DNA from: Eledone cirrhosa
Lineage: Eukaryota
DNA: 64,000 nucleotides
Direction of reading: 5' to 3'
Assembly: GCA_964016885.1 (NCBI GenBank)
Contig: OZ024742.1
Span: 194,928,001-194,992,000, forward strand
Part shown: piece after piece, positions 3,683 through 50,800 of the stretch
Layout of the letters: the number at the start of each line of letters is the position of its first letter
How positions within the stretch are numbered: position 1 is the stretch's first letter
The notes under the pieces: model-generated
Seen by the model: only the letters and a program-made list of their open reading frames with translations
Told to the model about the DNA's origin: nothing
The model's database searches: none
Made by a program: the position numbers and the translations under genes

Positions 3683-3714
<32 letters not shown>

Positions 3715-5438: not shown

Positions 5439-5519
<81 letters not shown>

Positions 5520-6110: not shown

Positions 6111-6146
6111 CTTTTGAAAAGCAGAAGAAATGCGAAACCGGTAAAG
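6111..6146 (+). ncRNA. Minimal hammerhead, U3-A8 compensated core
   Basis: ctt-TTGAAAA-gca(gaagaaa)tgc-GAAAC(cg)GTA-aag; palindromic stem III accggt. Confidence 0.7.
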
Positions 6147-6249
6147 GAACCAAATAAATATATATATTTTTTTTTAAATAAGACTCCAGTTGCATTTTCG
6201 ATTTCATCTATTTTCCTTATATATATATATATGATGATGATGATAATGA

Positions 6250-6530: not shown

Positions 6531-6718
6531 AGAGACAGAGAAATAAAGGGGTGAGGAAAAGATTAATATCATTGATATATATATATATATATATATATAC
6601 AATAAAGAGAGACAAACACAGATATATACATAACATACATATAAGCGTTCAAATCACAAGAGAGGTAAACCTTGTGATTTGAACGCGTATATGTATATAT
6701 ATGTGTTTGTCTTTCTGC

Positions 6719-6821
<103 letters not shown>

Positions 6822-9187: not shown

Positions 9188-9333
<146 letters not shown>

Positions 9334-9907
9334 AAAGAATAGAGGTGTACCACACAAGGTATTATATATTGGTAAACGGAATAGAAAATGCTGACAAATT
9401 GTTCACAGTGAAAAATAGTTTAATTAGGAATAAATGAGAATTAGTAATTGTATTGGTTAGTATTCAGTTTTGGTTTTAAGATTTTTGGTTTTAAGTTTTA
9501 CCGGTTGCGCATTTCTAAATGCTTTTCAAAAATAATTTTGAGATAGAGCGTCCGTGATGTTTGCTCTGATCTAATTAGTTTTGGGAATTCTACCTGTTTT
9601 TATGTTAAAAAAAGTGGCTCCAGCGCTATTAAAATTGGTTTTTGCGCCAATTCGTGTTGCAAAAATTCTTGTGGTCAAAGCAATTTTGATTGATCGGTAG
9701 AGGTCATGTGAATGTAAAAAATTGATTTTGTGCCAAGACTGAGAAATGACTCTTTCACAACAAATATGTGTGTGTGTGTGTGTGTGTGTGTGTAGTAGTA
9801 GTAGTAAAGTGTTCGTTGTTGTGATAATGGTTAGCAGGGATGTGTGTGCGAACCGCAGCCTGTTGACAGTTCAAATGCCTATTAAAACAAGTGTGTGTTG
9901 TGTGTGT

Positions 9908-9987
<80 letters not shown>

Positions 9988-10106
9988 CAGAGTAATTCGT
10001 GGTAGAGGGATAGTCAGTAGGAATGTGTCTGTAAGTGAGTGGGGGATATTTTAACATGTTAAAAGATATTTTTCAGCTCTTGTCTTACACGGAGAAGTGT
10101 GTATGG

Positions 10107-10140
<34 letters not shown>

Positions 10141-10248
10141 AGCAGAGTAATTCGTGGTAGAGGATGGTCAGTAGGAATGTGTCTGTAAGTGAGTGGGGGA
10201 TATTTTAACATATTAAAAGATATTTTTCAGCTCTTGTCTTATACGGAG

Positions 10249-10332
<84 letters not shown>

Positions 10333-10578
10333 GTCTCTTTGTATGTTTATGTACGCGTGTGTATGTGTGTGTGTCTATATGTGTGTGTGTGTGTGTGAAT
10401 GTGTGTGTGTGTGTGTGTGTATGTGTGGGTGAACCCAGTATGTTTTTCCTGGTAAAATGGTGTACATTATTCGATATTTTCAGTAAAATCGATTCTCTCA
10501 ATAGAACCTCAAAAACCTTAACAATAAAAGGTGTGAAATGATATTCACTATATATATACACATACATATATTCACTAT

Positions 10579-10700
<122 letters not shown>

Positions 10701-10810
10701 GTTGCACCATAGAACATGTGTGTTTACGTATGTTCATTGTGTTTATATGTGGGTAGAGATGAGTGCTGATGTAGGTATGTATGTTGACGTGTGTATGACA
10801 ATCTAAATCA

Positions 10811-11275
10811 ATGAAAAACATCCTAACACATGCCAAAGTACTGCCAACCACAATAACGAAACCCATAGTAAAAAAATGCGATAGACCCAACTGTGGCATT
10901 TGCATCAACCTAATAGAGGGTTCAGAATTCTATTTCAAAGAAGGACAACGTTTTATAGTAAAACACAATTTCACATGTGCATCGGAAATTCTAATATATG
11001 TATTAACTTGCTCAGGTTTTCGAGAATAATACATAGGCCAGACCAAAAACAGCCTCCGCCAACGTGTGACTGGCCATAGATCCCAAATTAAAATACGGGA
11101 ATACAGGAAAATACCATTGAGTGAACACATTGATACCTGTGCCGCCCAAAATCATCCCAACTTCAGAATATTTCCCCTCTACAAAATTAAAGATAATGCC
11201 ACCCACACCCAGCGCATCAGCAAGGAATCTTACTTTATTAACAAATACGGACCCCGTCTAAACACTTCTCCCTAA
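10811..11275 (+). pseudogene. GIY-YIG endonuclease domain, frameshifted near 11025
   Basis: ORFs 10811-11029 and 11066-11275 are homologous to ORF 4191-4799. Confidence 0.85.
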
Positions 11276-11384
11276 GACGAACCCACAACATACACACGTC
11301 AACATACATACCTACATCAGCACACATCTCTACCCACATATAAACACAATGACATACGTAAAAACACATGTTCTATGGTGCAAC

Positions 11385-11431
<47 letters not shown>

Positions 11432-11641
11432 ATATATGTATGTATATATATATTGTGAATATCATTTCACACCTTTTATTGTTAAGGTTTTTGATGTTCT
11501 ATTGAGAGAATCGATTTTACTGAAAATATCGAATAATGTACACCATTTTACCACCCACACACACACATTCTCACACACACACACACACACACATATATAC
11601 ACACACACATACACACGCGTACATTAACATACAAAGAGACT

Positions 11642-11674
<33 letters not shown>

Positions 11675-11783
11675 TTCACCGTATAAGACAAGAGCTGAAA
11701 AATGTCTTTTAACATGTTAGAATATCCCCCACTCACTTACAGACACATTCCTACTGACCATCCCTCTACCAGGAATTACTCTG

Positions 11784-11853
<70 letters not shown>

Positions 11854-11961
11854 CTCCGTGTAAGACAAGAGCTGAAAAATATATTTTAACATGTTAAAAT
11901 ATACCCCACTCACATACAGACACATTCCTACTGACCATCCCTCTACCACGAATTACTCTGC

Positions 11962-12027
<66 letters not shown>

Positions 12028-12269
12028 CACACACACATATTTGTTGTGAAAGAGTCATTTCTCAGTCTTGGCGCAAAATCAATTTTTTACATTCACATGA
12101 CCTCTACCGACCAATCAAAATTGTTTTGACCACAAGAATTTTTGCAACACGAATTGGCGCAAAAACGAATTTTAATAGCGCTGGAGCCACTTTTTAACAT
12201 AAAAACAGGTAGAATTCACAAAACTAATTAGATCAGAGCAAACATCACGGACGCTCTATCTCAAAATTA

Positions 12270-12306
12270 TTTTTGAAAAGCATTTAGAAATGCGCATACG
12301 GTAAAA
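12270..12306 (+). ncRNA. Degenerate hammerhead (UUGAAAA core, GAAA changed to GCAT/GCAA); inverted partner 9496-9532
   Basis: ttt-TTGAAAA-gcattt(ag)aaatgc-GCAT-acg-GTA-aaa; same position in the element as 6111-6146. Confidence 0.45.
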
Positions 12307-12484
12307 CTTAAAACAAAAAAACTTAAGACCAAAACTGAATACTAACCAATACAATTACTAATTCTCATTTATTCCTAATTAAACTATTTTTCACTGTGAA
12401 CAATTTGTCAACATTTTCTATTCCGTTTACCAATATATAATAACTTGTGTGTTACACCTCTATTCTTTTAACTATATATATATA

Positions 12485-12660
<176 letters not shown>

Positions 12661-12723
12661 TAAAGAATTTATAAATTTCAGTTTCGTTGGTTGGTTCCAC
12701 AACTGGACGGTTGTTCATATATT

Positions 12724-12766
12724 GTCAAAGTTCTTTCGTCACACATTATGTGACCTCTTCAGTGAC
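12724..12766 (-). ncRNA. Hammerhead, inverted copy of 16990-17032
   Basis: Reverse complement; the only change is in the stem II loop. Confidence 0.8.
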
Positions 12767-13581
12767 TGGGGATTATTTTCTTTGTTTTGTGCCTCTCCTT
12801 TGTTCTGTCCTACATCATCTTGTTTTTGTCTGTGTTGTGTGCTTAGTTTACGCATGTGTTACATCCGGGTGTCTGTGTGTATTTTTATTTGTTTATTTAT
12901 TTACATATTACTGGTTGGTTGTTTGTTCTATGTGTGTGTGTTTTCATTTTGTCCTTAATTGTAAATTGTGATATTGCTATTCCATTCATGTTTTCTATTT
13001 AATTTTGGTTGGAGTTCATTTATGTTTATTGCCTTTGTGATTTGTCTAAACATTGCGTCTTTTCTGTGTGTAGATTTTATTTTTATTTCTATGTTCTCTA
13101 ATTTGCCCTTATGTTCTATTTTAGCATGTTGGTGGAGTATAACAATATCGGTTTCAACACTCGTTTTCAGATAAATAATCATGCAAAACAAATTCAGAAA
13201 CGAAATATCGTAAGCCTTAGCCAGGCTAACAAGATACTGAAAACCACCATGTTCTGATGTCTACGAAAAACAATAACATCTCGACAACTACACTTCATAA
13301 AAGAATGTGCCTCATGCCGAGTTTACACCAACACCATCAACCTCGATGTAAGAAAATTACAACATACCAAAAAACAACCATATAGGCTAAAACGAACACT
13401 AATTCTAAACATGACAAAAGAAGATTTACAGAGAATTAAGTCATCACGAAAAACATAAGCGTAACCTAATACAAGAAATAACTAAGATCACCACACCAAC
13501 AGAAAATTAGTATATATAAACCTTATATGTGATGAAGAAAAGCACATCGTCCAGGAGTGCAACAAGCACTTTAACAAGAAA

Positions 13582-14577
13582 TTGAGGTGGCTCAAACAGA
13601 TGAAACTGAACCAAGAATCTTCAGAGAATAGAGATAAATATCAAGACAAGATTGATGGTATAAACATGGCGGACATCTCATTAACGGATGAATTCAACAA
13701 CATCAACACAAATATATACGACAACACTACAGTCGACTCTGATGAATTATCGATATTACAACTACTACCTAAATATGCCACATATAATAGGATAAATATG
13801 ATAAGATGCTTGTTAGAAATAGAAAAATCATTTACAAAATTACGTTGTGGCCTCAAAAACAACAACAACAAAAACAAAAACAAAAGTAACAACATACGCA
13901 CAGACACACATACAACACACATCCCAAAAACAACAGGCACACAGACACACATACAACACACATCCCCAAAACAACAGACACAAACAACGATAACAACAAC
14001 AACACACACAGATACAAACAACAATAACAACAATGACACACACAACAATAATAACATACACGGAGACAACAACAACAACAACAACAACAACACACATCAA
14101 CAACAACACACATCAACAACAACACACATCAACAACAACAACACACACACACATCTTATGACTCTCACCACCACCACAATCATAACAGACACACAGACAC
14201 AGAAAACAGATAATGACAGTAACACAGAAGTAAGGGAAGGTAATGGAATTGAAAGGAGAAGGGAGACTATCGATACTGACAGAGAAAATAACAAGGATGA
14301 ACACACAGACACACAAAATAGAGTAGATAATAACAACGAGCCAGAGGGAAGAGACAGGAGTAATAATGAGAGACATAGAAACAACCATGAGGTTGTTGGT
14401 GGAAATAGAAATAGAAACAACACAACTAACAATAGCAATAGCAATAGTACACATAAAGAAGCAGCCTGGAATTCTACTTTGTATAATCCTTCCGATATAT
14501 CCTTCGACCTACGACGAGTCCACGCCATGACTTTAGCTTTTAACAAACGCCTCGCAATTGCCATCGCAGGTAGATGA
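13582..14577 (+). pseudogene. PLE N-terminal region with N/T/H-rich low-complexity linker
   Basis: ELSILQLLPKYA resembles the PLE N-terminal L.LG.KF motif; (AAC)/(CA)-derived coding repeats; directly upstream of RT. Confidence 0.65.
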
Positions 14578-14683
14578 ACAATTAGTATAGCTAGATCTAA
14601 ATGTAAAAATATTATAGAACAGTATAGCAAGAAGCAAAATAGAATGGAGGCCCAGCAACTGGGAGAAAAAATCTGCAAATGGC

Positions 14684-16081
14684 TTGCGTAAGCTCATGCA
14701 GCGCTCGCGTAATGGAGAGATTGCATGGTTTCCAACAGACAAGTCTGGCAGAATGTCGGTTGACAGTCTGTCAAACTACATCCAGGCAATGCAACCCCAC
14801 ATCACTAACACAAGAGAAGTAACACCACAAGAGCATGAGGATAGGGAGAAAACCCTCAATTCCCATATGATGATGTGGACAAACATAATGCAGCCCAATA
14901 AAATAACTGCCAACAACTTCCAGGCCTGTAACAATGACGTGCCAGCGTTGTATGAGCTTCGAAAAGACCATAAGGCGAACAGTGACCCAGTCACAGGACC
15001 ACCAACACGGCCAGTCTGTGGAGCTAACATTGCTAGTAACTACAGACTTTCCTACTTCCTCTCCCTGATCATACGCCCCATCATTGAAATGTCCCCAGAT
15101 ATATGTGACAGCACGGAGGACATCCTCAGCAGAATCAGCGAAAATAACCGATCTAGAGACCTAACAGACTGTATAATAGGTAGTATGGATGTTGTGTCCC
15201 TATATCCATCCATTAACGTGGATTTTGCTGTGGAGAAATGCGTAGAAATGATCAGTGAGAGCAATGTTGAATTCCGTGGGATTGATACCAGTGAGCTGGG
15301 ACTCCTACTTAAACTTACCTATAGTAATGTTTATCTAGATACGTATGACCTTAGCTACCTGTGCCCTACAAGAACAGGAAGAGGCAGGCCACCTACCATT
15401 ACCTCAATGGCCAAGAAAACCCACACAGAAATATGGAACGGGTGGACCAGAGACATACGGACCCCCCAAAACAACGATGAACTAAAGAAAATGATTGCAC
15501 ATGCGGTGGGGGCCAGTATAAAACTAACCCTTAAGGAAGATATGTTCAAATTTAATGGAAAAACATATGCCCAAGAGGAGGGAGAAGCCATTGGTGTTAG
15601 CATTGCAGGTGACATAGCTAACCTATTCATGGTATGGTGGGACAATAAACTTAAACTTAAACTTAAAGAACAATTAGAAGACAGCAACCTCTTAACCCTG
15701 ATAATGTACTCCCGCTACGTTGATGATATAAACATCGTTGTAAAAACATCCCCACTAGAGAACAGTCAGGAATTGGAGAAAAACACCATGGAAAGCATCC
15801 AGCAAATAGCTAACTCCATCCACCAGAGTATTAGAGTTACTATAGACTACCCAAGCAAACACCCCAACCATCGATTACCTGTACTAGACACAGAGCTCTG
15901 GTTAGAAACCATTAATAACAAAAAACAAATCCTCCATTCCCATTATGCCAAACCCATGACTTCCAAATATGTGATCCACCGAAACTCAGCTGTTTCGGAT
16001 CACGCCAAAATCAACATACTGATTGCGGATTTGGTACGGGTGATGAGAAACGTGTCCCGCATGTGCAACGCAAAGAACTAG
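14684..16081 (+). pseudogene. PLE reverse transcriptase (core intact, flanks frameshifted)
   Basis: PTDKSG, LRKDHK, PTRPVC, SMDVVSLYPSI, YAQEEGEAIG, YSRYVDDI, LPVLDT, HYAKPMTS. Confidence 0.92.
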
Positions 16082-16469
16082 AGAGATACATACAACACTT
16101 CATCCACCATATGCAGTTCTCTGGTCACAATCAGAGAGATAAAATCAGAGTATATAGAGTGAGCCAGAACCAAATGGGAAAAAATGGTAAATAATGATAC
16201 AAATGGGACCTACCTATTGTATAGGAGCAAATTTTGGAATAGAATAGAAATAACTAGGAATAAGGTTAATAGAATAAACTCATGGTATGATAGTAATAAA
16301 TACCAGAGTGAAATGTTCATCAATACAACCCCTAAACCCCTAGAGATGAATTAGCTTACAAATTTAGAAGGGCCCTAGATAAACATAAACTCAATTAGCA
16401 ATAGATGCCCTTTTCAAAGACTTCCCTGTATAGATAAGAAATGCATAATCTGTACACTAAGCCCCCATA

Positions 16470-16792
16470 TTAACTGTAAAACTAGAAATGTAGTATATAG
16501 CATAAGATGTACTGAAGGACAATATAAAGATAAGAATATAGTGTACATAGGTGAGACAGCTCGTAGTATAAGAGAACGGATAAATGAACACTGGCGAGAA
16601 CTTCAAGATAAAAAAGAATCATCAATACTCCACCAACATGCTAAAATAGAACATAATGGCAAATTAGAGAACATAGAAATAAAAATAAAATCTACACACA
16701 GAAAAGACGCAATGTTTAGACAAATCACAGAACTCCAACCAAAATTAAATAGAAAACATGAATGGAATAGCAACATCACAACTAACAATTAA
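16470..16792 (+). pseudogene. PLE GIY-YIG endonuclease
   Basis: NCKTRNVVYSIRC...VYIGETARSIRERINEH...LHQH...QPKLN. Confidence 0.88.
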
Positions 16793-16989
16793 GGACAAAA
16801 TGAAAACACACACACGCATAGAACAAACAACCAACCAGTAACATGTAAATAAACAAATAAATAAACAAATAAAACACACACAGACACCCGGATGTAATAC
16901 ATGCGTAAACTAAGCACACAACACACACACAAACAAGATAGCGTAGGACAGAACAAAGTAGAGGCACAAAACAAAGAAAAGATTCCCCA

Positions 16990-17032
16990 GTCACTGAAGA
17001 GGTCACAGAATGTGTGACGAAAGAACTTTGAC
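16990..17032 (+). ncRNA. Minimal type I hammerhead in PLE pseudo-LTR
   Basis: gtca-CTGAAGA-g-gtcaca(gaatg)tgtgac-GAAAG(aa)CTT-tgac. Confidence 0.8.
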
Positions 17033-17180
17033 AATATATGAACAACCGTCCGGTTGTGGAACCAGCCAACGAACCAGAAATTTATATATTCTTAAATTTA
17101 TAAATTTAATTTATACTAAATTCTAGTGAAAGCAATTGGTGCGTATGTTTCTTATTGGCAACATGACCCTCCCAAAGTAT

Positions 17181-17234
<54 letters not shown>

Positions 17235-20027: not shown

Positions 20028-20118
<91 letters not shown>

Positions 20119-20208
20119 TATTACGGCTCTGTCCTCAGACATTGAGCTAACCTCATACTGCCTGCTGGATAAGTGGAGTGTTATACACCCCTGATCCTTT
20201 CCCTAGCA

Positions 20209-20276
<68 letters not shown>

Positions 20277-20281
<5 letters not shown>

Positions 20282-22560
20282 TGACAGATTAAAGTTTAAG
20301 CAAAGAATCGCTGCTTTCACCCATAACGGTATCTTCTGAAATTAAAAAAGTCAATCTGTGAACGGAGAAGTAAATATTTCAAAAAAGGTTGCAACCGGAG
20401 GAAGACAGGAAGACGATAAATTTGGTTCGTGGAATCGTTCCCTGGCAAAGAACGGGGGAAAAAACGAAGATAATACGTCATTATTTGAGAAAAAAAATTA
20501 CACGCTAAGACAAAACCACGTTTATGGTTGAGGCCAACCTCTTGATCGTTAATTACCTCGACGTTACCCTCAATTTATTGAATGGCTTGCACTACCCGTA
20601 TAGAAAGCCGAATGATACGCTTAATAACATAAGTAAGCATTCTAACCATCCTGCCAGCATAACCAAGAACCTGGTAAGAAACGTTTCTTTGAGGCTTTCC
20701 CTAACGAGCATATTTTCAATGACCATTCCACATATTACAATGAAACTCTTGCTCGGAGTGGTTTGTCGATAAGGTAGCATATACAGAGTACGAAAATAGA
20801 CCTAGAATTAATAGATCCCGACGCATTATATGGTATAACCGACCATATAATATGGAGGTGGCCTTACCATTAGCTAAGATCTTTCTCTCCCTTATTATGA
20901 AGCATTTTTCTCCAACACATAAATATAGTAACATTTTTAATAGAAATACCATTAAAATGTCCTACTCTACGCCTCCTAACCTTGCACATAACATCACAGC
21001 TTCAAATTTAGCTAAACTACCTAGCCGTAGGAACACGTGCGGCCATGTATCTAGTACTAACTGTAATTGTAGGAATCGGGTTGATTGCCCCCTATCCGGG
21101 AAATGCCTCTCTAGTAACATTGTCTACAAATGTAAGGTTGAAACACCCACGTCCCGTATGGCCTACATAAGGTTAACCGCCAATAGATTCAAGCAGCGTC
21201 TTTACATGCATACCCATTTTTTCTTAACCCTTTAAGAAGGAATATGACGTCACTTTCAGCTTATATCTGGAGTCTAAAAGACAACCACACCCAGTATAAG
21301 TTACACTGGGAGATCCTAGCTAGGGCTAGATCGTATAACGGAAATAAAAGACCATGTGACCTCTGCGCCGCTGAGGCCCTGGAAATACTCTACGCCAAAG
21401 ACCGCATCTTAAACAAAAAATCTGAGGCAATTTCGGCTTGTAAACAAAACTTTCCTGTATTACATTATACCCTAACGGATAGTACGAACTATACGCGGAT
21501 ATGTTACGTCTTGATGTGGTAGCTAAGTATATGTTATGTTTGTACCATTACTTATTTGTATAGGCAAGTATATATTACCTGTATGTTTTGTGAAGGTACG
21601 TATACTTTCTCGTACGTATATTTGATTGTATATGTTATGGCGTATATATTATATATTCTGGTACATATGCATTTGGTTGTGTATACGCGATTTTGCGTCT
21701 GCGTGAGTATGCGGGTTCGTACGTATGTAGGGTGTGTGTATATGTGTACTTTGTGTTTTGGTTGACATACGTCTCCGAACATATGTGTATTTACATGTAG
21801 TTATGTGTGCGCGCGCGTTATATACGTATTTATTTATTTATTTATATACCTTTATTTAATTATATGTATACATGCACACACACACACCCACATTATATAT
21901 ATATATATTTTTTTTAATACATATCTTTATGTGTATTTGGTGTATACACTCGTATGTGTGCGGGTACAGGCGTTTCGTGTGTTGTGTATGTGCGTGCGGG
22001 GTTTTGTTGAGGAGGGGGAGTTTGTACGTGCTTGTATTTGTATACCTATGGCGAGTGTTTTCGCGTATGCTTATGTATGTACGTATATGGATGCGTGTAT
22101 GTATTTATAATAATTTCAATTAATTCTGTATTTTATTTACTTTATTCTTAACTCTGAAGCCGAGAATCATTCGGTTTCCTAGTTCATTGCCAGGGAACGT
22201 CTCCATGAATCACCTAATAGAATATTAGTCTACGACTTCTTTTATACCATAAATTGTTTTTCACCGCTCCAAATAATGACGTATTATCTTCGTTTTTTCC
22301 CGTTCTTTTCCAGGGAACGTTTCCACGAACCAAAGTATCGTCTTCCTGTCTTCCTCCTGTTGCAACGTTTTTTGAAATATTTACGTCTGCGTTCACAGAT
22401 TGACTTTGTTAGTTTCAGAAGATCCCGTTAAGGGTGAAAGCAGCGATTCTTTGCTTAAATTTTAATCTGTTATTTTAATAAAGTTTTGCTCTACGGTTCT
22501 TATATATTTGATATATATTTATCCTTATGGACCCCTCGTCTTCAAATTTATTATTATTAC
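20277..22560 (+). mobile_element. PLE family A copy with inverted pseudo-LTR
   Basis: Inverted arm 20277-20527; body from VNYLDVTLNL through GIY-YIG (20852-21522); HHR motifs at 20293-20343 (-) and 22411-22461 (+). Confidence 0.92.
22411..22461 (+). ncRNA. Family A hammerhead-like motif (CAGAAGA)
   Basis: agttt-CAGAAGA-tccc(gttaa)gggt-GAAAGCA...TGCTT-aaatt. Confidence 0.65.
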
Positions 22561-30783: not shown

Positions 30784-30842
30784 GGAAAAAATGAAATTTC
30801 ATTTTTCCCTCTTAGTACGGCTGATACTTAAATATAAGCATG

Positions 30843-31115
30843 TATACAGAAGTACACTAGTATGTATATACATGTGTACACTAGTATGTGTATACAGAAG
30901 TACACTAGTATGTATATACATGTGTACACTAGTATGTGTATACAGAAGTACACTAGTATGTATATACATGTGTACACTAGTATGTGTATACAGAAGTACA
31001 CTAGTATGTACATACATATGTACACTAGTATGTATATACAGAAGTACACTAGTATGTGTATACATATGTATGTATACGTACGTACATATATGTTTACACA
31101 CGTACACTAGTATGT
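30843..31115. repeat. 48-bp (2x24) minisatellite inside repeat 30780-31318
   Basis: Unit tacagaagtacactagtatgtata-tacatgtgtacactagtatgtgta, about 5 copies. Confidence 0.85.
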
Positions 31116-31319
31116 ATATACATACATGCACACATATATATATGTACGTATGGGTTTACCGAAAATTTATTATAATGCTCGGTTTATTTGCAAACAAACA
31201 ACCCGAATTAGTAGCCGTAGAGTGTTCGGCAACCATCGTTGCCCTTTTGTTCAACACTGACTAAGGGGCGATGAACTAGTGTCTAGCTTATTAGCTGTCA
31301 TCAGCATCGTGTACCTTCC

Positions 31320-31403
<84 letters not shown>

Positions 31404-31448
31404 GAGAGTAAAACAAAGAATCCTTTAATACATCAAAAGTTTTTATTA

Positions 31449-31486
31449 GCCGACAATGTTTCGTCCTATTAAGGACTCATCAGGGC
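31449..31486 (-). ncRNA. Canonical hammerhead, inverted copy of 33728-33765
   Basis: Exact reverse complement. Confidence 0.92.
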
Positions 31487-33727
31487 AATCAAAACAACAA
31501 GAGGTAATTTCGGCAGATACAAGCCAGAAACTCTGAAGAATATGGAGTTTACATACACTAATGTCTTACAAAGATATACGATAATAAAAATGAAGATAAA
31601 AATAATAAAATTATAATAACTAAGGATGTAGATAACATTAAGAACCATATTACAAATATAGTCCAAAGTCACCAACTTAAATCTAAACAAATTTGGTTAT
31701 ATAGAGCAGGAATTATATATAACACAGTATAATACATTATAATAATAATAAATCTATACCAACACTGAAATTCCAAATCAAAAATCAAAAGGTACAATAT
31801 ATACATGTATATATGTGCGCACACACACACACACACACACACACATATTACAATACACATATCTATTTTCTAATACACAGAAATTAAGCCCTATTGGAAG
31901 TTTGAACATAAAAAATATTCCTTTGTTTGCCAACACTATTGTTACCATTGGTTTTTGATGACTCTTCATTCTAGCTCTCATAATCATTTGGCCACTGTAC
32001 CATATCTATGTCTTCACTATTACACCTTGTTAGTATACATAAGATTACACACGTTATTATCTTTATATATTCTTTTATTATCATTAACTTTAATTTTTAA
32101 TTTTAACATTATTTTTATTTTTATTTTTAATTTTAATTCTATTTATATTTTTATTTCTAAGTCTATTCTGATTTATCTATCGAACCCCCCATGCACGCAT
32201 AAACTTATTGTCAACCCCTCTAGATTGAATATGATTATATTAACCCCCCCCCCCTCTTTTATGCTCTGTTCTATTATTTATTATAGTATATCGAATATAT
32301 TTTATGCCACTTCGCACCCTCCATATATTTTGTCAATTCTGTCCCCATTAGCCTACCTTAACTATACTTAAGTCAGTTTTTTAGATATCGTTGCGTGTAT
32401 GATAGTGTAATTTTATTCCCTTTTGTAAACATTTGTAACGATACATTAAAGTTTATATACTTTAATGACTTAGACTATAGCTAATTTTATACTACCTTAT
32501 CGGACGGGTTTGATATTTTTAATATTAATTTATCAGATAGGGTTTGGAGTCATTTAAAATGATCGTTTTCCTTGGTGTTTACCAAATTTCTTAATGCACG
32601 CGAGACCTAAGTGTGTACACATTTGCTTTGTTTTGTAATTTCCGGTTGATTGTATTTATCTGTTTTATTTACTACTCACTGTCTGGCTTCGTTCACTCAT
32701 CCACACATGTCTGTCTACTAACCTTGAAATTATAAGTATTTATTTATATATTATATGCCAATTTTTAAAATATATTACATTATGATATAGATCCTTATTA
32801 CTTACCGTTTATTATATATAACATTAAGATAGTTAAACTTTATATATTTTAATATTTTAATATTTTAATAATGTAACATTATGGTATTTAGACTTTACAT
32901 ATGTTAGATGTCTATATTTTTTCTGTAACAACATATTTTTTCTGTAACATCATAATTGTTCCCTGTACCAATATAGTTTTTTTGAGTACTATTGTATTAT
33001 ATTATATGATTGATATTTCCCCATTTATTATGTAACCCAGTATGAATCATGTTGTACATATTGTTTATGGTAATTGTTAATATAATGTTAACAATTTATC
33101 ATTGTATTTCACTGTGACATCTATATTGTTTCTGTAAATTAACCGGAGATTATATATATTCTACTTTATTATATTGTATTGTATTATATAATTTTGTTGT
33201 TTATTATTTATTATAAGTGTTTCTTGTAATTATTGCCTCATGTATATTGGGTAGATGTATTAGCATTATTTTCACTATTACCATGCTTATTTTTGATATT
33301 TTTGATGTTCAAACTTCCAATAGGGCTTAATTTCTGTGTATTAGAAAATAGATATGTGTATTGTAATATGTGTGTGTGTGTGTGTGTGTGTGCGCGCACA
33401 TATATACATGTATATATTGTACCTTTTGATTTTTGATTTGGAATTTCAGTGTTGGTATAGATATATTATTATTATAATGTATTATACTGTGTTATATATA
33501 ATTCCTGCTCTATATAACCAAATTTGTTTAGATTTAAGTTGGTGACTTTGGACTATATTTGTAATATGGTTCTTAATGTTATCTACATCCTTAGTTATTA
33601 TAATTTTATTATTTTTATCTTCATTTTTATTATCGTATATCTTTGTAAGACAATAGTGTATGTAAACTCCATATTCTTCAGAGTTTCTGGCTTGTATCTG
33701 CCGAAATTACCTCTTGTTGTTTTGATT

Positions 33728-33765
33728 GCCCTGATGAGTCCTTAATAGGACGAAACATTGTCGGC
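33728..33765 (+). ncRNA. Canonical minimal type I hammerhead ribozyme
   Basis: gcc-CTGATGA-gtcc(ttaata)ggac-GAAAC(att)GTC-ggc. Confidence 0.92.
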
Positions 33766-33917
33766 TAATAAAAACTTTTGATGTATTAAAGGATTCTTTG
33801 TTTTACTCTCTTAATTTTTCGGCTCTGTTTAACTGCATTGAGCTATACCTTTTACTGTCATTTCTATAATACGAAGAGGGTGTTTAACTCAAACACGCTC
33901 CAGTATTCTAATCCTTA

Positions 33918-33948
<31 letters not shown>

Positions 33949-34320
33949 GTATTTATTAATATGTATATATATATATATACTGGAAAGCGTATTGCTACAA
34001 AGTATAGTTGTATCAGAATCTCACAAATACTTCAGCTATATACATCCACGGGCAAAGGTGACAGGATCTATAGAATTCTATTTACCGTCTAGAAAACTGG
34101 ATGAATACGAAATATATGAACGCCAGAGCGTAGACAAATAGTCATATATACACATATATATAATATTTATATATAAGTAATATATATTTATATACAGCTG
34201 ATCTATAGCGAAACGCGCGACAATACTAAAGACATAACAAAACGTCCTTTTATTATATATGTATGTGTGTGTATGCGTATGTATATATATGTAAATATGT
34301 ATATACGGATATATATACAT

Positions 34321-34429: not shown

Positions 34430-37400
34430 TTAACTTTGATAACTTTGATAGATTTCGGCCAGTAATAGCCCAGGCCATGTCTAACTTAATAGCACCACCT
34501 GGCATAGTCTTACAAATCAGTGTTTGGGCACCATGGCCCACTCGAGCAGAGAGTTATTGTTTACGGAGTCATATCCGGGTGTAGTAGGCTTATCCGGGAT
34601 TTCTTGAAGAATTTATCCAAATACATCTTGAACTTGATGGGGTCTGTCTCTGATTTGATGTGTTTTGGTGTAATGTTAAAGAATGCAGGGCCAATTGAGG
34701 TGAAATAATTGTGCCGTATTGTTTTTATGTGATGCGAGTGAGATTTTGGTTTGGGCGGATAGCACGGGGTCCAAGCTTCGGGTGTACACTAAAGGTGATG
34801 CCAACATCATTTGGTCAAAGATGATGGAATAATTTCCACATCATACAAATAAAGTAGCGCTCACGGCGATGTTGGAAAGAATAAAGTTTGAACTTTTCTA
34901 ATCGACTCCAATAGTCAAGGCCTGTCATGCCATCTATCGTTTTTGTAATTGCCGTTTGGGGTGCTTCAACTTTCATGATACTTTGTTTCGTGTGGGGTGA
35001 CCACAGTGGACAACAGTATTCAAGGTGGGGTCGGGAAAAAGTGGAGAAGAGATGGATAACAGTGTTGATATCTCTCGACTGGAAAGTTCTGAGAATCCAG
35101 GAACACATTCTGCGGGCCATATCAACTTTGCTGCTTATATGAGTGGCCCAGCTTATGTTGTTGTCCACAATTACTCCCAGGTCTCTGATGATATTGGATG
35201 CCACTAGAGTTTCACCCGAAGGAAGAGGGTATGGTAGTTTCAGGGCATCCTTTTTTCCAAAGTGGATTAATTCAAATTTATCCTCATTCAACAGCATATT
35301 ATTCATTTCTACCTATTGGATAACAGCCAGTAGGTCTGACTGAAGGCAAGTCCGGTCACCCACCTCATTGATGACCCTGATGTTGCTGTGCTTGATGATG
35401 TCAGTAATGTCATTAATGTAGATGATGAAAAGAAGTGGGCTCAACACAGTGCCTTGTGGAACGCCACTGCTGACTTTGGCAGGGCTTGATATTACTCCTT
35501 CGACTACAACATGCTGGGTTCTGCCTGTCAGGAAACATTTGCTCCACTGTAGTAACCTTCTAGAGACAGCAACATTGGATAGTTTTTTCAGTAGAATCTT
35601 ATGATCAAGCCTGTTGAAGGCCTTGCTGAAATCAAGGTAGTTGACATCAGTGTTGGAGCCCTCTCCCAAGGCTCTCAAAACATCGTCAAATTGATGCAGG
35701 AGCTGCGTTAGGAAGTCCCTTCCATTACGGAACCCATGTTGGTTGGAGTTCAGCAGGCCGTTGCTTTCAAGAAAGTGGGTTATTCGTGATCTCACCACCC
35801 TCTCAAATACCTTGATAATATGAGAGGTGAGTGATATCGGACGGTAGTTCACTGCAAGGGATTTATTTCCCTTTTTGAAGACTGGGACAGAAAGTTTTCA
35901 GGAATATAGCTAGTGTCCAGTGAGTTCCTCCACAGATTAGCAAGAGAAGATGCAAGTTGGTGTCGACACACCTTCAGGACACAAGCAGGGAACCTGTCGG
36001 GGCCTACTGCTAAATTGTGTTTAATTTCGTTTATTGCCGCTAAGACATCAGGGGCGCCAAACGTTATGTCTGATATAGTGTGTTGGGGATTAACATCACT
36101 GATACGGCCCAGATCGGCCATATCAGAGTTGCTGAAAACAGAGCAGTATAGTTTCTGCAGTATCTCGCCCATGGTTTTGGCATTGTCCTGGAGTGTGCCA
36201 TTTTCATCAACTAGGGGGCCAACAGTGGAGACGGTGACCTTGTGATTTTAGTAAATGAAAAGAACACTTTGGGGTTGAGTTTGATTTTCTCAATGGCCCA
36301 CCTCTCTTCAGCTATTCTCTGGTATTTTGATGATGGTCATCATGCATTGCTGGAGGTTATATTTGTTTGACTCAAGCAGGGCGAGAGCCATTGAATGTGT
36401 GTGTTGCTGTTGGCAGTATTTTAGTGTGTTAATTTTTTTGTTTGTTCTTTTTATTTTTCTGATAATTGTTTTTCTGTTTTGGGGGATACCGCACTTGGTT
36501 TTGTTCACAGGTTTTGGTGGGGTGTGTTTTGTACATATATTTGTGACAGTGTCTACAAAGATCTGCCAAGATGTTTTGATGTTGGTGGAAGTGTGTGCGT
36601 GTGTAAAAGACCAGTGGACATGTGATAGTTCGTTCATAATTGCATCCCAGTTGGCATTGTAGAGATCCATGTTATCAAATGGGTGGGCTGGAAAGAGGAC
36701 CCTGGGATTAGCTTTCGGCTGGTGGAATCTCAGGTTACAAAGAACCATGTCATGGTCTGAGAGAAGGGTTTTTTCCACTGTAATATTATCTATAGTGTTA
36801 GTGTGGTTACTAAACACTAGATCCATAATGTACTTCTGATGCCTAGTTGGTGCAAGGACAAGTTGGGAGAAGAAAAACTCATTCATGAAGTCAAGAAATG
36901 ACTCGACAGCCTTTTTGTCAGTGGTTGAGGTTGGGGAGCCTGGTTTCAAATTACATGTAGACCAATCGACACATGGTAGATTAAAGTCTCCCATCAAAAG
37001 TATGCTGCTAGAATGGCACTGTTTAATAAAGCATTCAATACTGTTGAGGCATTCTTTGAAGCAGATTATGGGTGTTTGTGGTGGCCTATATAGCCCAACT
37101 AATGTCAGGTCATTGGCTTTATTGTGCACAGTGACTGATTCACAGTATCCATTAGAGAATGTTGTGTTACCATCTGCCGTAAAGGAATCATGCAAGAAAA
37201 TAGCAATTCCACCCTTTCTTCTGCCAACACGATCCGCACGGATGGTTGTGAAATTTCTCACTCTTACTTCGGCCTCCAAGTGGGAGTTGTCAAGGTGGGT
37301 CTCAGTAAAAATGAAGAAGGAGGTGTGAAATGGATGGTTACCAACCCAATCCTCAATGAATTGGATCTTCCATTTCTGTGCATTGATGGATGGGCTAATA

Positions 37401-38656
37401 CCTTGTGTATTGAGTATGAATGTGAAGGCTAGTGTGGTGGCTTGTTTTTTACTGTTGTAGGGGGCTTGATTTGTGATTGTGCGTTAGTGACAGCAAGGAT
37501 GGTGCTGGGTGATGGCTAAAATGTTTTTCTCTATCTCTTTTGCCAGGTTCATGGCTAAAAAAGAAAGATTTTTCTGTTTAGAGAGCAGTTTTTGATTGGA
37601 TTTGTGGTTACAACATTGGATATGGTTACAGTTACCTCTTTTGTTGTTGTTGTTGTTGTAATCATGTCTTTGTGAAAAGACTGGAGCAGCATTACTTTTG
37701 TTGTTGTAATCATATCTGTGTGAGGGGACTGGAGCAGCATTACCGCAGCAGGGGATGGCTTTATTGTGGTTTGTGGGTTGGCATGGAGCCCCTTTTCTTT
37801 TCGTGCGTTGTGTCCCAGGAAGATGAGTGAAGGGACAGTCAGTCAGCAGACATAGCCTCTCACGTTGGGAATGTTGGCAGATTTTGGGACTGCGACCTAG
37901 ACGTTCGGGCAGCGTGCTTTGTTGTTGGCTGGCAGTGTCAGTGCGCCTAGTACCCGGTAAATGGGTAAATATACAGTCGCTACGTGTGCATAGCCTCTGA
38001 CGTAGTGAGTAGCGGCATATTTGGGGGTCTCTAGTATGTGTAGTGGGGGGGGGGGTACATACAGCTACATAGATTTTTGTTTTCAAAGTTCTTTTGACTA
38101 TGGTATGGCTTTGGTGGTGATGTGGGGGAAGAAAGCATTAGTGGTGATGATGATGATGACAACTGTGGTGGGAGAGAGAGCAGTGGCCCATTACTAGCAG
38201 TTGATGTGGCAGAAGATGTTGATGTGGCAGAAGATGGTGACGGTGGTGATGGTGATGGCGATAATGATGGCTGAGTGAGTGGCTGAGGGATACTGTCATT
38301 CAGTAATTCAACTATTATGCTTGAATTTAGTAGTGGTTGCTCCTAGCTTTCTGGCTGTTGTTGTTGTTGTGGCTGTTGTTGTTGTTGCTGTTGTTGTGTT
38401 TGTCCATTGGAGTAAATATGTCGAAGTTTTTCAAAATGGTTTTGAATTAGTTTGAAAGAGACTTCTACATGTTTTAGTTTGTTGTGTATCTGCTTAGCAG
38501 ACCTCGTGGTAAATATTTGAGCTGTTTTTCCAGCAATTTCATTCAGACATGACACGTTAATGTTTATTGTTTGGGACAGAGAAAATTATGTGTTTATTTA
38601 GCGGTCAATGTTATTTTCAGACCAATTTCGTCCGTTGTGGGCTTGCTGGTGAGTAG

Positions 38657-40949: not shown

Positions 40950-41836
40950 AACAAATAATAGTTAAATGCAGTCCACTTAGGTGAAGTCCAGTTATGGTAT
41001 TCCAGGTAGTGGATGATATTAACGCTTGGCTTGGTTTGACTCAACAAGGCGTTTTCATAGTGATGCTGCGGGTATGCTGTAATTCCTATGTTGTAAACAC
41101 TTGGAGTAATAATAAATCAGGAAAGAAGGTTTACATGGTTTGCTATACAAAAAAGTTTTTAATCACATAGCTTACATTTGTTTCACTGAACTGGTATGTC
41201 TAGAGATCGCTATCCGCCTAATTTTGCGTCACTCGATCGCCAATACAGAATTATAACCAGTCAGATCTTCGGAGCATGCGAGAATGAAGAAAATACACAG
41301 GCAAGAAAATAAAAGAAAATATATATGCGTATATTAATTCGTTAACCTCTGTATTAACTCTACAACTATTGAGCTTTGACAGTGGTCCCACTCATGTATA
41401 CGGTTGAAGATGAAGAGAAAGACTGTAAAAACTAGCTTATCTTTATAATTTAAAATTGATACACACTACGATACTTTTTGCCTTATGACAGCTGGTTTTC
41501 ACGCCGTAACATTAGATACATTATATACCCCCCACCTAAGTAATGTCAGGGTCTCCTTAAATAGTTTATTGATAGCATTGTTGTAATAATTGTTGTTGTT
41601 TATTGTTCTAATTGAATGCCATAACTACTCCATATTTTCTTTTATTTTCTTGCCTGTGTATTTTCTTCATTCTCGCATGCTCCGAAGATCTGACTGGTTA
41701 TAATTCTGTATTGGCGATCGAGTGACGCAAAATTAGGCGGATAGCGATCTCTAGACATACCAGTTCAGTGAAACAAATGTAAGCTATGTGATTAAAAACT
41801 TTTTTGTATAGCAAACCATGTAAACCTTCTTTCCTG

Positions 41837-41841
<5 letters not shown>
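40950..41841 (-). mobile_element. Non-coding fold-back element with extended-stem-II hammerheads
   Basis: 41113-41320 is inverted at 41633-41841; TA-flanked. Confidence 0.85.
41676..41788 (+). ncRNA. Hammerhead-like motif, CCGAAGA core, large stem II insert (partner 41166-41278 -)
   Basis: catgct-CCGAAGA-tctgactgg[~62 nt]ccagttcagt-GAAAC(aaat)GTA-agctatg. Confidence 0.65.
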
Positions 41842-41922
<81 letters not shown>

Positions 41923-45974: not shown

Positions 45975-48045
45975 ACCCTCAATTTGCGAATGGCTTGCTC
46001 TACCCGTATAGAGAGCAGAATGATACGCCTAATTACATAAGTAAGCATTCTAACCATCCTGCCAGCATAACCAAGAACCTGGTAAGAAAAGTTTCTTTAA
46101 GGCTTTCCCGTCTATCTATAAACGAGCTTATTTTCACCGACCATTCCACATATTACAATGAAGCTCTTGCTCGGAGTGGATTTGTCATAAGGTAACATAT
46201 ACTAAGTATGAGCATAGACCAAGGAAAAATAGACTCCGACGCATTATATGGTATAACCCGCCATATAATATGGAGGTGGCCACACCATTAGCTAAGATCT
46301 TTCTCTCCCTTATTAACAGGCATTTCCCCTCAGTACATAAATATAATAACATTTTTAATAGAAATACCATTAAAATATCTTACTCTACGACTCCTAACCT
46401 TGCACATAACATCTCTCCTTCAATTTTAGCTAAATTACCTAGCCGTAGGAACACGTGCAACCTTGTACTAACTTTATTTGTAGGAATCGGGTTGACTGCC
46501 TTTGATCCGGTAAATGCCTCTATAGTAATATTGTCTACAAATGTAAGGTCGAAACACCCACTTACCGTAGGGCCTCCATAGGGTAAACCGCCAATAGATT
46601 CAAGCAGCGTCTTTACATGCATACCCATTTTTTCTTAACCCTTTAAGAAGTAAATTGACGTCACTTTCAGCTTATATCTGGAGTCTAAAAGATAACCACA
46701 CCCAATATACGTTACACTGGGAGATCCTAGCTAGGGCTAGATCGTATAACGGAAATAAAAGACCTTGTGATCTTTTCACTGCTGAAGCCCTGGAAATACT
46801 CTACGCTAATGACCACATCTAAATGTCTGAGGCAATTTCGGCTTGTAAATTCAAATTGCATAAAACTTTCCTGTATTACAGCCCAACATTATACCCTAAC
46901 GGATAGTACGAACAATACGCGGATAATTTACGTCTTGATGTGGTAGCTAAGTATATTTTATGTTTATACCATTACTTATTTGTATAGGTAAGTATACCTT
47001 ACCAGTATGGTTTGTGAAGGTACGTATACTTTCTCGTACGTATATATGCTTGTATTTGTTATAGGTGTATATATTATATTATATATACTGATATATGTGT
47101 ATATGGTTATGTGTATATGTGTATTTTGTGTTTGTGTGTGTATGCGTGTATGCGTGTTTGCACGTATGTAATGTGTGTATATGTGTACATTGTGTTTTCG
47201 TTGACGTACGTTTGGTGAACATATGTGTATTTACCTGTAGGTATGTGTGTGCGTGCGTTATATACGTATTTATGTGTCTATATTTATATACGTTTATATA
47301 ATTATATGTATATATATATACACACACATACACATATATATTTTTTTATGTGTATTTGGTGTATATTTTCGTAGGTGTGCGGGTAGTGGTGTCGCGCGGA
47401 TCTTTGTATGTGTGCGCGTGTTTATGTATATGCATGCATGGCGGGTGTTTTGCCTATGCCTGTATGTACGTATATTGTTTTACCTATGCATGTGTATGTA
47501 TATAGTTAATTGTTATTGATTTTATTGACCCCTGTCATTTTCGTTCTACTAATTTATTTACATTATTCTACGGGGTCGACAAAATAAAGTACCAGTAATG
47601 CACTGGGTTTTTGCTGGTCTTGTGCCTAAATAGAAACAATTATTCTTAACTCAGAAGCCGTGAATCATTCGGTTTCCTAAATAGAATATTAGTCTACGAC
47701 TTCATTATTAGCATAAACGGGGTTTTGTCTTTGCGTGTAATTGTTCTATCGCGCCACATAACGGCGTATTATCTTCGCTTTTTTCCGTTCATTGTCAAGA
47801 AACGTCTTGACGAACCAAAGTATCGTCTTACTGTTTTCCTTCGGTTGCAACGTGTTTGGAAATATTTGACAGATTGTTTTTTTACTTTCAGAAGATCCCG
47901 TTAAGGGTGAAAGCAGCGATTCTTTACTTAAACTTTAATCTGTTATTTTAATAAATATTTTCTCTAGGGTTCTTATATATTTGATATATATTTATCCTTA
48001 TCGAGCCCTTTTTGGATTTTAGTCTTCAAATATATTATTATTATT
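45975..48045 (+). mobile_element. PLE family A copy, 5'-truncated, HHR-like motif at 47884-47934
   Basis: NYISKHSNHP..MEVATPLAKIF, degraded GIY-YIG; a small SINE S2 fragment lies at ~47570-47640. Confidence 0.9.
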
Positions 48046-48079
48046 TTTTTTAAATTAATATATATATATATATATATAT

Positions 48080-49189: not shown

Positions 49190-50800
49190 ATTGACATAAA
49201 GTCGTATTAGTTTCACGCTTAATTCCAGCAGAAGCAGTTGGGGAAGATTGTCAACTTCTCTGAGCAGGGGTTCTTCATTTAATGTCAGCTAATCACACAA
49301 GCTGTTGCACTCACTATGTACGCAACGCTCAACCAAAATTAAATTTCTCCTACCTTCCTTTCTCTTAAGGTACAGTTTTGCAATATTTGTCTCTGGGTGC
49401 AAGCACCCATTGCACATTAAAACCTTACATGTGTGTCTAACAATTTTTTGAAGGTCTTGTTCCATCTTATCAATTATTCTAGCTCTACTCCCAAAATCCA
49501 TTGTTTTATTCCAGATGTTACATTTCCTGCATACAGTTTTGACTTGGATAATTTTATCCCCTTCCTTATGTACTCCTTCACAAATTTTTCCTTCATTTCG
49601 TCTATTTTGATTTCTGCATCCTGCAACATGCCCTAGTATTTGTTAACAGTTTCTTCAATTTACGCCATTCTTTCACCATCAGGTATTTCAATATCATCGA
49701 TCTCAACTCATGTATACTTTTTTTTTACAGTGCTTTGCATTTGCCAAAACCAAACTTTATGCCTATGTCATCAGATAGAATCCTCACTGTGTGGATAAGT
49801 GAACCAAATTCTCTTTCATTCCGGCCACACAACATTAAATCGATGAACAATAGTTGGTTGATACGCATTGACTCTTTCGCCATGTAATATCCACAATTTG
49901 TTTCTCTGAGAATAAGATTAAGACGGATCAGCGTAATGATAAACAGCGACGGTGATAGTGAGTCCCCATGGTAAATACCTCGTCTGATGCAAACTTCTTG
50001 AACTTCTTTATTAGATGTCAATTCCGTTCTCCGTGGTTCCATGTTGTTGAACAGCATTCCCTTGGTGTTATCTGCTTGACCTACAATGTTGAGGGCTTCC
50101 TTTAACCACGAGTGGGGTCTATGTCGTAGGCTTTCTTGTAATCTATGAAAGCCATTGTCAAGTTCTCTTTTGTTCTCTTGCAGTTCCTTAGAATCTCCTC
50201 ATAAATTAACAACTGGTCATTGTTTTTTCTGCACGCTCCACGACACCCGTTCTGCTCATTTGGGAGGAGATTCGCCTCTTTCAGATGCTTATATATCTTG
50301 TTTCCAATAATCCCAGTCAATAGTTTCCAAATGACTGGCAGGCACGCTAATGGTCGGTAATTGGTAGTCACATATCCCATCGGTTTCTCCTTCACTATAA
50401 GGACTGTTCGACAATTGGTCATACAATTTTGGACTTCTCCTAACTGCAAGCACTTGGTTATCCTAACATGTATGTTGCTCATTTTCTTGTACCAGAATCC
50501 TTGGAAATCATCAGGGCCAGGTGCCTTGCAGATTGTCATTTCTGTAACAAACTTTTTGACGCCACTGGCGTAAATGCGGATGTTACCTTGTTTCACATTC
50601 TGATTTAGCCACTGTGTCTCATTATTATGAGAAAAAGGTTTTCCCAAGATGTTATTCCAAAACTCAGTCACCTCAACTGGATCAAGAAGCACGTACATCG
50701 TTTTGTATTTACCATCGAGTTATTTATAAAACTGAGAAGGGTTTGATCGAAAACGTTTCTTTTGATAGAATTGCTGTTGTTGATTTTAAAATTCCGAATC
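49190..50800 (-). mobile_element. R4/Dong-like non-LTR retrotransposon RT fragment, degraded
   Basis: KAPGPD..GFWYK, NYRPLACLPVIWKLLT, FIDYKKAYD, RRGIYHGDSLSP, LYLKRKEG. Confidence 0.85.

What the first reader, a model, noticed from the sequence alone, without database searches (positions are those of the whole stretch)
31400..33895. Young, protein-free 2.5-kb element with a perfect hammerhead in each arm (retrozyme-like candidate)
Seen: ~520-bp arms differing at only a handful of positions, a fully canonical HHR (CUGAUGA/GAAAC/GUC), and ~1.4 kb of AT-rich interior with no RT or GIY-YIG trace. Inference: this is either a non-autonomous HHR retroelement mobilised by PLE proteins or a PLE with an unusually long 3' UTR.
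Basis: partly seen in the sequence, partly recalled or inferred. Interest (0 to 1): 0.7.

Follow-up and report, generated by a model that had tools for sequence, protein, structure and literature searches.

The report
Truncated Penelope-type insertion, inverted hammerhead arms
This 2.5-kb insertion with no recognisable protein has two near-identical arms that point in opposite directions and each carry a hammerhead ribozyme motif, and it is likely the cut-short, partly inverted end of a Penelope-like jumping gene, an ordinary pattern shared by several neighbours, although whether its parent element encodes a protein further upstream is untested.

Summary
In detail: arms 31399-31918 and 33296-33815 differ at 4 of 520 positions, and each has an intact type I hammerhead core. 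The finding omits that the arms are INVERTED. Any one transcript carries a single sense ribozyme plus its complement, so this locus cannot give hammerhead-to-hammerhead circles. It fails the retrozyme tests (direct or tandem copies, units under 1 kb). Its anatomy is (TA)n, inverted arm, sense body, hammerhead arm, 100-nt tail, (TA)n. That is the textbook 5'-truncated, 5'-inverted insertion of Penelope-like elements (PLEs). Five of seven neighbouring PLE relics tested show inverted arms, and six measured have 0.3-1.2 kb of non-coding 3' sequence. Public reads show the whole interior is multi-copy, with a much more abundant 3' end. I found no RT or endonuclease trace; a 150-codon open frame has no homologue among 1.84 billion proteins. 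Still open: whether the parent is an autonomous PLE with a non-coding 3' region of 1.9 kb or more (about 50%) or a non-autonomous PLE derivative of 2 kb or more (about 38%). No genome was available to extend copies upstream. Real, young, a known kind; low interest.

The parts
31320..31400 (.). (TA)n microsatellite, left side of the target site
   Evidence: TRF period 2, 40.5 copies
31399..31918 (-). Inverted 5' arm: reverse-complement copy of the last 520 nt of the body, without the tail
   Evidence: 4 of 520 differences from 33296-33815
31439..31495 (-). Hammerhead motif of the inverted arm (identical to the right one)
   Evidence: Rfam RF00163 31.7 bits at 31445-31489; 136 of 136 identity to 33680-33815
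31911..31918 (.). Inversion junction: 8 matching nt after a mismatch at 31910; possible microhomology (inferred; upstream parent sequence unknown)
   Evidence: junction print-out
31919..33295 (+). T-rich interior with no recognisable protein, multi-copy in public reads; holds low-complexity tracts
31919..32368 (+). 150-codon stop-free frame starting at the junction; hydrophobic, low complexity, no homologue; probably not a gene
   Evidence: 1 of 500 and 4 of 500 shuffles reach it; no hit
33296..33815 (+). Sense 3' arm (pLTR-like end), with a (TG)12 tract and the hammerhead
33719..33775 (+). Type I hammerhead: interrupted 11-bp helix I, 4-5-bp helix II, 2-bp helix III; predicted cut after C33762
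33816..33915 (+). 100-nt tail present only at the 3' end; no ATG
   Evidence: covered by many contigs in runs X1 and X2
33916..33979 (.). (TA)n microsatellite, right side of the target site
   Evidence: TRF period 2, 32 copies

Best explanation
This is likely a recent, 5'-truncated and 5'-inverted insertion made by the enzymes of a Penelope-like retrotransposon (PLE), copied from a family whose T-rich non-coding 3' region is at least 1.9 kb long and likely follows an RT/GIY-YIG ORF that this copy did not reach. Shown: inverted arms, one-sided tail, (TA)n on both sides, intact hammerhead core, multi-copy interior, 3'-heavy abundance, the same anatomy in ORF-bearing neighbours. Inferred from PLE biology: the GIY-YIG nuclease nicked the (TA)n run; reverse transcription began inside the RNA near its 3' end (start at the tail end or at the arm end, giving tailed and tail-less ends); it stopped after about 2 kb; a second, shorter cDNA was joined head-to-head, giving the inverted arm. 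The copy would be dead on arrival. Read-through RNA would fold into a 520-bp hairpin that buries the ribozyme, and self-cleavage would need a second same-strand copy to stabilise helix III.
For: Inverted arms, tail and TA target. PMC8557442 passages describe high 5' truncation, an inverted 5'-truncated copy at the 5' end, a one-sided tail and (TA)n bias; PMC3846280 passages describe the same inverted pLTRs and tail. PMC11167929 explains tails by two internal RT start sites. PMC4209133 reports hammerhead pairs on opposite strands as probable truncated PLEs. In this window 5 of 7 intervals tested (A-E, not F or G) have inverted arms of 152-1413 nt around PLE-type coding relics. Their non-coding 3' stretches are 968, 1152, 1209, 308, 958 and 1005 nt (A-F). 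A, E and F are T-rich (0.42-0.43) like this one (0.46), and D, E and F have 80-106-nt tails like this 100-nt one. Reads: 29 of 30 bins covered in X1, X2 and X7. Depth at 31939-32007 is as high as in the rest of the interior, so the family likely continues upstream; the hammerhead bin is about 30-fold (contigs) or 7-10-fold (RAD reads) deeper.
Against: No link to an ORF was seen; no loose end at the junction was among the rows shown (261 rows hidden). 1897 nt is 1.6 times the longest non-coding 3' stretch among six neighbours. The ribozyme is of the canonical type (short helix II, loop close to the Rfam consensus, 2-bp helix III); PMC7229834 passages tie that type mostly to non-autonomous retrozymes, and PLEs to minimal or atypical forms. 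The tail (100 nt) is longer than the 30-40 nt in print. The element shows no significant DNA similarity to the neighbouring ORF-bearing families. A target-site duplication cannot be read inside (TA)n.
Confidence: 0.5

Rival explanations
1. A non-autonomous PLE derivative of 2 kb or more: a non-coding RNA that keeps the cis-acting 3' end (hammerhead plus tail) and is copied in trans by an autonomous PLE; this copy is again a truncated, inverted insertion. It includes the case of a PLE end fused to captured non-coding DNA.
For: At least 1997 nt with no recognisable coding sequence. Canonical-type hammerhead. Multi-copy interior. Precedents: non-autonomous Chlamys such as MRC1 (PMC8557442 passage); pLTR-only mobilisation in trans and 0.9-1.5-kb captured spacers in Adineta Pen1/Pen3 (PMC3846280 passages).
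Against: Neighbouring ORF-bearing PLEs already carry about 1 kb of similar T-rich non-coding 3' sequence, so absence of ORF in 1.9 kb is weak evidence. No tail-to-head joint and no fixed 5' end were listed (contigs are short, so this is weak).
Confidence: 0.38
2. A non-LTR retrozyme: tandem hammerhead units that self-cleave to monomers, circularise and are re-inserted.
For: Canonical-type type I hammerhead and low GC. The hammerhead end is far more abundant than the interior, so a short, abundant relative sharing that end may exist elsewhere in the genome.
Against: The hammerheads are on opposite strands; no direct repeat of arm, ribozyme or tail inside the element or elsewhere in the window.
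Confidence: 0.04
3. A foldback or MITE-like DNA transposon with 520-bp terminal inverted repeats that happen to include a hammerhead.
For: Long, near-perfect inverted repeats around a non-coding core, in a TA target.
Against: The ends are unequal, with a 100-nt multi-copy tail beyond one arm. Depth falls at the junction bin (651 vs 4474 in X1; 1.6 vs 65 in X7), which argues against a junction shared by most copies. There is a steep 3' gradient, and arm lengths vary freely among neighbours.
Confidence: 0.04
4. An assembly artefact (false inversion) or a later local duplication.
For: No laid contig or read was shown to span the inversion junction; inverted PLE structures are known to trouble assemblers.
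Against: The arms differ at 4 sites, and at 33653 the left arm keeps the letter of all laid copies while the right arm has a private change, as expected of real divergence. Neighbours show the same plan with 77-96% arm identity.
Confidence: 0.04

Closest known systems
5'-truncated, inverted-pLTR insertions of endonuclease-bearing Penelope-like elements (Penelope/Poseidon, Neptune, Nematis, Hydra; PMC8557442, PMC3846280, passages read)
   Same: Head-to-head inverted 5' copy of the 3' end, one-sided tail, hammerhead in the terminal repeat, (TA)n target, 3'-heavy abundance.
   Different: No RT/EN sequence in this copy, so no clade can be assigned; the non-coding stretch is 1.9 kb or more; the tail is 100 nt instead of 30-40 nt; the hammerhead is canonical rather than minimal.
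Neptune-like PLE family in this same window (A about 600-2665 -, E 20274-22560 +, F 46001-48060 +; clade label from recalled motifs)
   Same: T-rich non-coding 3' stretch, ribozyme-like core 65-85 nt before an arm end at TTAA(T), 80-106-nt tail in E and F, inverted arm starting out of (TA)n in E.
   Different: They keep RT-thumb/GIY-YIG coding relics; their non-coding stretch is about 1 kb; their core reads CAGAAGA; no convincing DNA homology to this element.
Non-autonomous PLEs (Chlamys MRC1; Adineta pLTR-flanked cargo mobilised in trans)
   Same: No ORF; PLE-type ends.
   Different: Those are defined by known full-length structure or tandem pLTRs; here the 5' end is unknown.
Metazoan non-LTR retrozymes (PMC7229834 passages; bioRxiv 10.64898/2026.07.22.740005, parts 1-3 of 5)
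   Same: Canonical type I hammerhead, low GC, no ORF, presumed dependence on PLEs.
   Different: Not tandem, hammerheads on opposite strands, unit at least twice the largest reported, no circle possible from this locus.

Membership tests
Penelope-like element (EN+) | ORF with telomerase-like RT and GIY-YIG endonuclease | tested here: not met
   Absent from this copy. Whether the parent family has one could not be tested (no genome held), so it is filed as a PLE-type insertion, not as an autonomous PLE.
Penelope-like element (EN+) | Terminal repeat (pLTR), direct or inverted, formed by a 5'-truncated second copy | tested here: met
   520-nt inverted copy of the 3' end
Penelope-like element (EN+) | Tail extension at one end only | tested here: met
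   100 nt, 33816-33915, multi-copy in reads; longer than the 30-40 nt in print
Penelope-like element (EN+) | Hammerhead motif in the terminal repeat, sense to the element | tested here: met
   sense is assigned from the hammerhead and tail and by analogy with neighbour D
Penelope-like element (EN+) | Frequent 5' truncation | tested here: inconclusive
   Steep 3' depth gradient, but summed contig depth is not a copy number and a short relative could share the end
Penelope-like element (EN+) | AT-rich or (TA)n target, short TSD | tested here: met
   (TA)n on both sides; a TSD cannot be read in the repeat
Non-LTR retrozyme (animal) | Type I hammerhead | tested here: met
   RF00163 match below gathering score; strict descriptor
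Non-LTR retrozyme (animal) | Head-to-tail tandem units with same-strand hammerheads | tested here: not met
   Opposite strands; no direct repeat; no tail-to-head joint listed
Non-LTR retrozyme (animal) | Unit of about 150-450 bp (up to about 1 kb) | tested here: not met
   At least 1997 nt without repeating
Non-LTR retrozyme (animal) | Expressed as self-cleaved linear and circular RNA | not testable with these tools
   No RNA run could be laid on it
LTR retrozyme (plant) | Direct LTRs with type III hammerheads, PBS/PPT, 4-bp TSD | tested here: not met
   Repeats inverted and hammerhead type I; PBS/PPT not searched
Non-autonomous PLE | Full-length unit has no ORF yet has its own 5' end | not testable with these tools
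   Upstream sequence not recoverable
Hammerhead ribozyme (activity) | Self-cleavage at the GUC site | not testable with these tools
   Core intact; monomer fold predicted unfavourable; helix III near-palindrome can pair with itself (-3.7 kcal/mol)

The most novel reading that the evidence does not exclude
A multi-copy, still-active non-autonomous PLE parasite of 2 kb or more, with a canonical retrozyme-type hammerhead and a 100-nt tail: a missing size class between 0.2-1-kb animal retrozymes and full PLEs, which TRF-based retrozyme screens capped at 1 kb would miss. Its head-to-head insertions would seed 500-bp perfect hairpins as substrates for RNA editing and silencing.
Probability: 0.35. 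Interest if true: 0.45.

Novelty: new member of a known kind. Interest (0 to 1): 0.22.

Why it matters
As the truncated end of an autonomous PLE it matters little: a clean, young example of a documented insertion pattern, with a long 3' region and a canonical-type hammerhead. If the parent is non-coding, it would extend animal hammerhead parasites of PLEs to 2 kb or more and link retrozymes to PLE-type integration with tails and inversions. That would be a useful but incremental result, since non-autonomous PLEs are already in print (PMC8557442, PMC3846280). Practical lesson for the scan: two arms with a hammerhead each point to a retrozyme only if they are direct repeats.

Tried and rejected
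1) No whole genome is held, so copies could not be extended upstream. 2) Exact and gapped hammerhead patterns in metagenome contigs, a hammerhead pattern in GTDB genomes and an interior pattern in viral contigs: 0 hits each. 3) Earlier findings by place and by sequence: none. 4) No RNA holder listed among public runs; this is not evidence on expression. 5) A 63%-identity DNA match of 31936-32080 to the antisense of neighbour D's GIY-YIG region (E 0.009) is chance: 42 of 60 shuffles score as well. The match of 32857-32961 to neighbour B is also chance (18 of 60). 6) The 150-codon frame as a gene: no Pfam hit; 0 of 743 candidates among longer proteins; 0 hits among 1.84 billion representatives. 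Of 8 listed variant sites in it, 5 change the residue, and a 2-nt deletion at 32244 is in 6 of 10 RAD reads. It stays longer than shuffles predict, partly through 6-nt periodic repeats. 7) Pile-ups of RAD read ends at 33813/33816 as proof of a second 3' end: rejected, since 5 of 6 listed pile-ups sit at TTAA, likely the library's restriction site. 8) An internal diverged duplication (32762-33001 vs 32978-33215, 63%): marginal, 10 of 300 shuffles. 9) The hammerhead motifs are not in the supplement of PMC8557442; one short tail motif occurs once in an unrelated coding context. The supplement of PMC13282606 was listed, not read; Repbase, Dfam and species repeat libraries cannot be searched here and may already hold this family. 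10) miRNA-family Rfam hits are (TG)n/(TA)n noise far below gathering scores.

Full report
Observation. The element runs from the (TA)n run at 31320-31400 to the one at 33916-33979. Its arms are 31399-31918 and 33296-33815, 520 nt, with four differences: 0.77%, 95% interval 0.2-2.0%. They are inverted repeats. Each holds the same hammerhead: CUGAUGA at 33731, a 4-5-bp helix II, GAAAC, a 3-nt loop, GUC ending at 33762, and an interrupted 11-bp helix I. Rfam Hammerhead_1 scores it 31.7 bits (E 2.6e-5), under the gathering score of 34. A strict descriptor finds these two and none in 100 shuffled windows. Helix III has only two pairs, and the active fold is predicted to be 4.5 kcal/mol less stable than the MFE fold, while the near-palindromic helix III can pair with a second copy. 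This fits the dimer-dependent type described in PMC4209133 (parts 1-2 of 4 read). Activity is untested.

Orientation settles the retrozyme question for this locus. A transcript of either strand holds one sense ribozyme and the full complement of its arm (predicted duplex -847 kcal/mol), so there are no two same-strand cut sites to release a circle. Here 1997 nt run without repeating and no direct copy exists in the window.

The anatomy is that of a PLE insertion. The right arm is followed by a 100-nt tail that the left arm lacks. PMC8557442 passages describe 5' truncation, an inverted 5'-truncated copy forming flanking inverted repeats, a one-sided tail and (TA)n bias. PMC3846280 passages show the same plan, plus mobilisation in trans by pLTRs alone and captured spacers. 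PMC11167929 (parts 1-2 of 4) traces the tail to two internal RT start sites and finds hammerhead cleavage dispensable for insertion in vitro. PMC4209133 reports opposite-strand hammerhead pairs as probable truncated PLEs.

The window is its own control. It holds several PLE relics. B (3030-6225) has a Pfam GIY-YIG above cutoff and D (12659-17186) a sub-cutoff RVT_1 match (2 of 9 peptides with an RT or GIY-YIG hit). A, E and F are mutually homologous. A's peptide matches three 684-712-aa proteins at 40-43%; in P0001 I read RT, cysteine-linker and GIY-YIG-like motifs by eye. My Pfam scan found no RT or GIY-YIG in them, so 'Neptune-like' is a recalled label. Five of seven intervals (A-E; not F, G) have inverted arms of 152-1413 nt. 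Non-coding stretches from the last coding trace to the arm end are 968, 1152, 1209, 308, 958 and 1005 nt for A-F. A, E and F are T-rich like this element, and D, E and F have tails of 84, 80 and 106 nt. Long non-coding 3' regions and roughly 100-nt tails are thus normal here, but 1897 nt is the longest seen, and the element is not detectably homologous to these families.

Public reads (4 of the 9 runs listed; X1 and X2 are one sample). 816 and 931 contigs and 2250 RAD reads were laid, covering 29 of 30 bins; the empty bin is a masked repeat. A 90-nt contig identical to 31963-32052 has depth 474-556, whereas private-looking variants sit near 6-13, which suggests tens of copies (a rough inference; the tool warns that depth is not copy number). 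Interior depth does not fall toward the junction (4474 at 31939-32007 against 405-6777 in other covered interior bins of X1). It rises to 130,000 at the hammerhead and drops to 26,000 at the tail end; RAD reads show a 7-10-fold rise. The junction bin is low (651; 1.6 in RAD reads), so the junction is not shared by most copies. Most laid records are under 99% alike (205 of 816 at 99% or more in X1), so the family is older and more diverse than this copy. The common A-to-G difference at 33773 keeps helix I paired as U-G; no core change is among the 40 rows shown, with 166 hidden. 93 RAD reads leave the reference at 33805 and run into (TA)n, i.e. tail-less ends exist. 49 reads share only about 31936-32009 and then diverge, pointing to a related subfamily. 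Run X4 (another organism label) covers 9 of 30 bins, all at 33112 or beyond, at low depth. No upstream extension and no tail-to-head joint were among the rows shown, so the key question stays open.

Coding trace. tblastn of ten window PLE peptides gives best E 0.11. A 150-codon stop-free frame starts right at the junction and beats shuffles (1 of 500, 4 of 500). It has no homologue, mostly residue-changing variants (5 of 8) and a common frameshifting deletion. I treat it as a low-complexity artefact, not excluded as the end of an unknown ORF.

Age and host. The repeat landscape resembles cephalopod genomes (recalled, not tested). If the rate in PMC13282606 (JC 0.09 = 25 My, passage) applied, the arms would date to about 1 My (0.3-2.7); conversion between arms would make that an underestimate.

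Mechanism and verdict. Shown: structure, motif, multi-copy interior, 3' gradient, shared plan with neighbours. Inferred: nicking of (TA)n, internal priming, premature stop, head-to-head joining of a second cDNA, a dead copy. A PLE-type insertion is about 0.9 likely; autonomous parent with a long 3' region 0.50, non-autonomous parent 0.38. Literature searches (listings, with the papers above read in part) showed no description of this family or of a hammerhead-bearing non-autonomous animal PLE of 2 kb or more, but repeat databases and most subscription papers were not searchable. PMC8969392, PMC12602865 and PMC6431247 were seen as passages and did not change the reading. New member of a known kind; interest 0.22.

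Noticed in passing
window 22414-22445 (+), about 660-640 (-), about 47890-47915 (+): Three copies of the Neptune-like PLE family carry a hammerhead-like core reading CAGAAGA...GAAA instead of CUGANGA, at the usual place near the 3' end; the same letter in all three suggests a family-level core variant or a dead ribozyme.
   Followed up: partly
window 20118-20212: A solitary piece of about 100 nt between two (TA)n runs resembles this element's tail along its length (0 of 1000 pairwise shuffles, but 4 of 60 in a whole-window test): possibly a tail-only insertion of a related family.
   Followed up: partly
window 12659-17186 (+): Near-full-length PLE with RT and GIY-YIG relics, a 495-nt inverted arm, minimal hammerheads at 12762(-) and 16994(+), and a long Asn/Thr-rich low-complexity stretch in the N-terminal ORF (13486-14577), recalling the N-rich inserts of rotifer PLEs.
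   Followed up: partly
window 3030-6225 (-) and 9188-12630 (+): Two GIY-YIG-bearing PLE relics with 1.2-kb A/C-rich 3' regions full of (CA)n and diverged tandem units, long inverted arms, and no CUGANGA core found by the regex.
   Followed up: partly
window 2883 (+), 17298 (+), 40799 (-): A further family of minimal-hammerhead-like motifs with long helix II, in short pieces next to (TA)n.
   Followed up: no
window 41112-41842: Another young inverted repeat: 211-nt arms, 100% identical, about 310 nt apart.
   Followed up: no
window 30841-31130: 24/48-nt minisatellite just left of the element.
   Followed up: no
window 34815-37483 (-) and 49289-50719 (-): Broken non-LTR retrotransposon ORFs (endonuclease and RT-like peptides; family labels recalled, not tested).
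   Followed up: no
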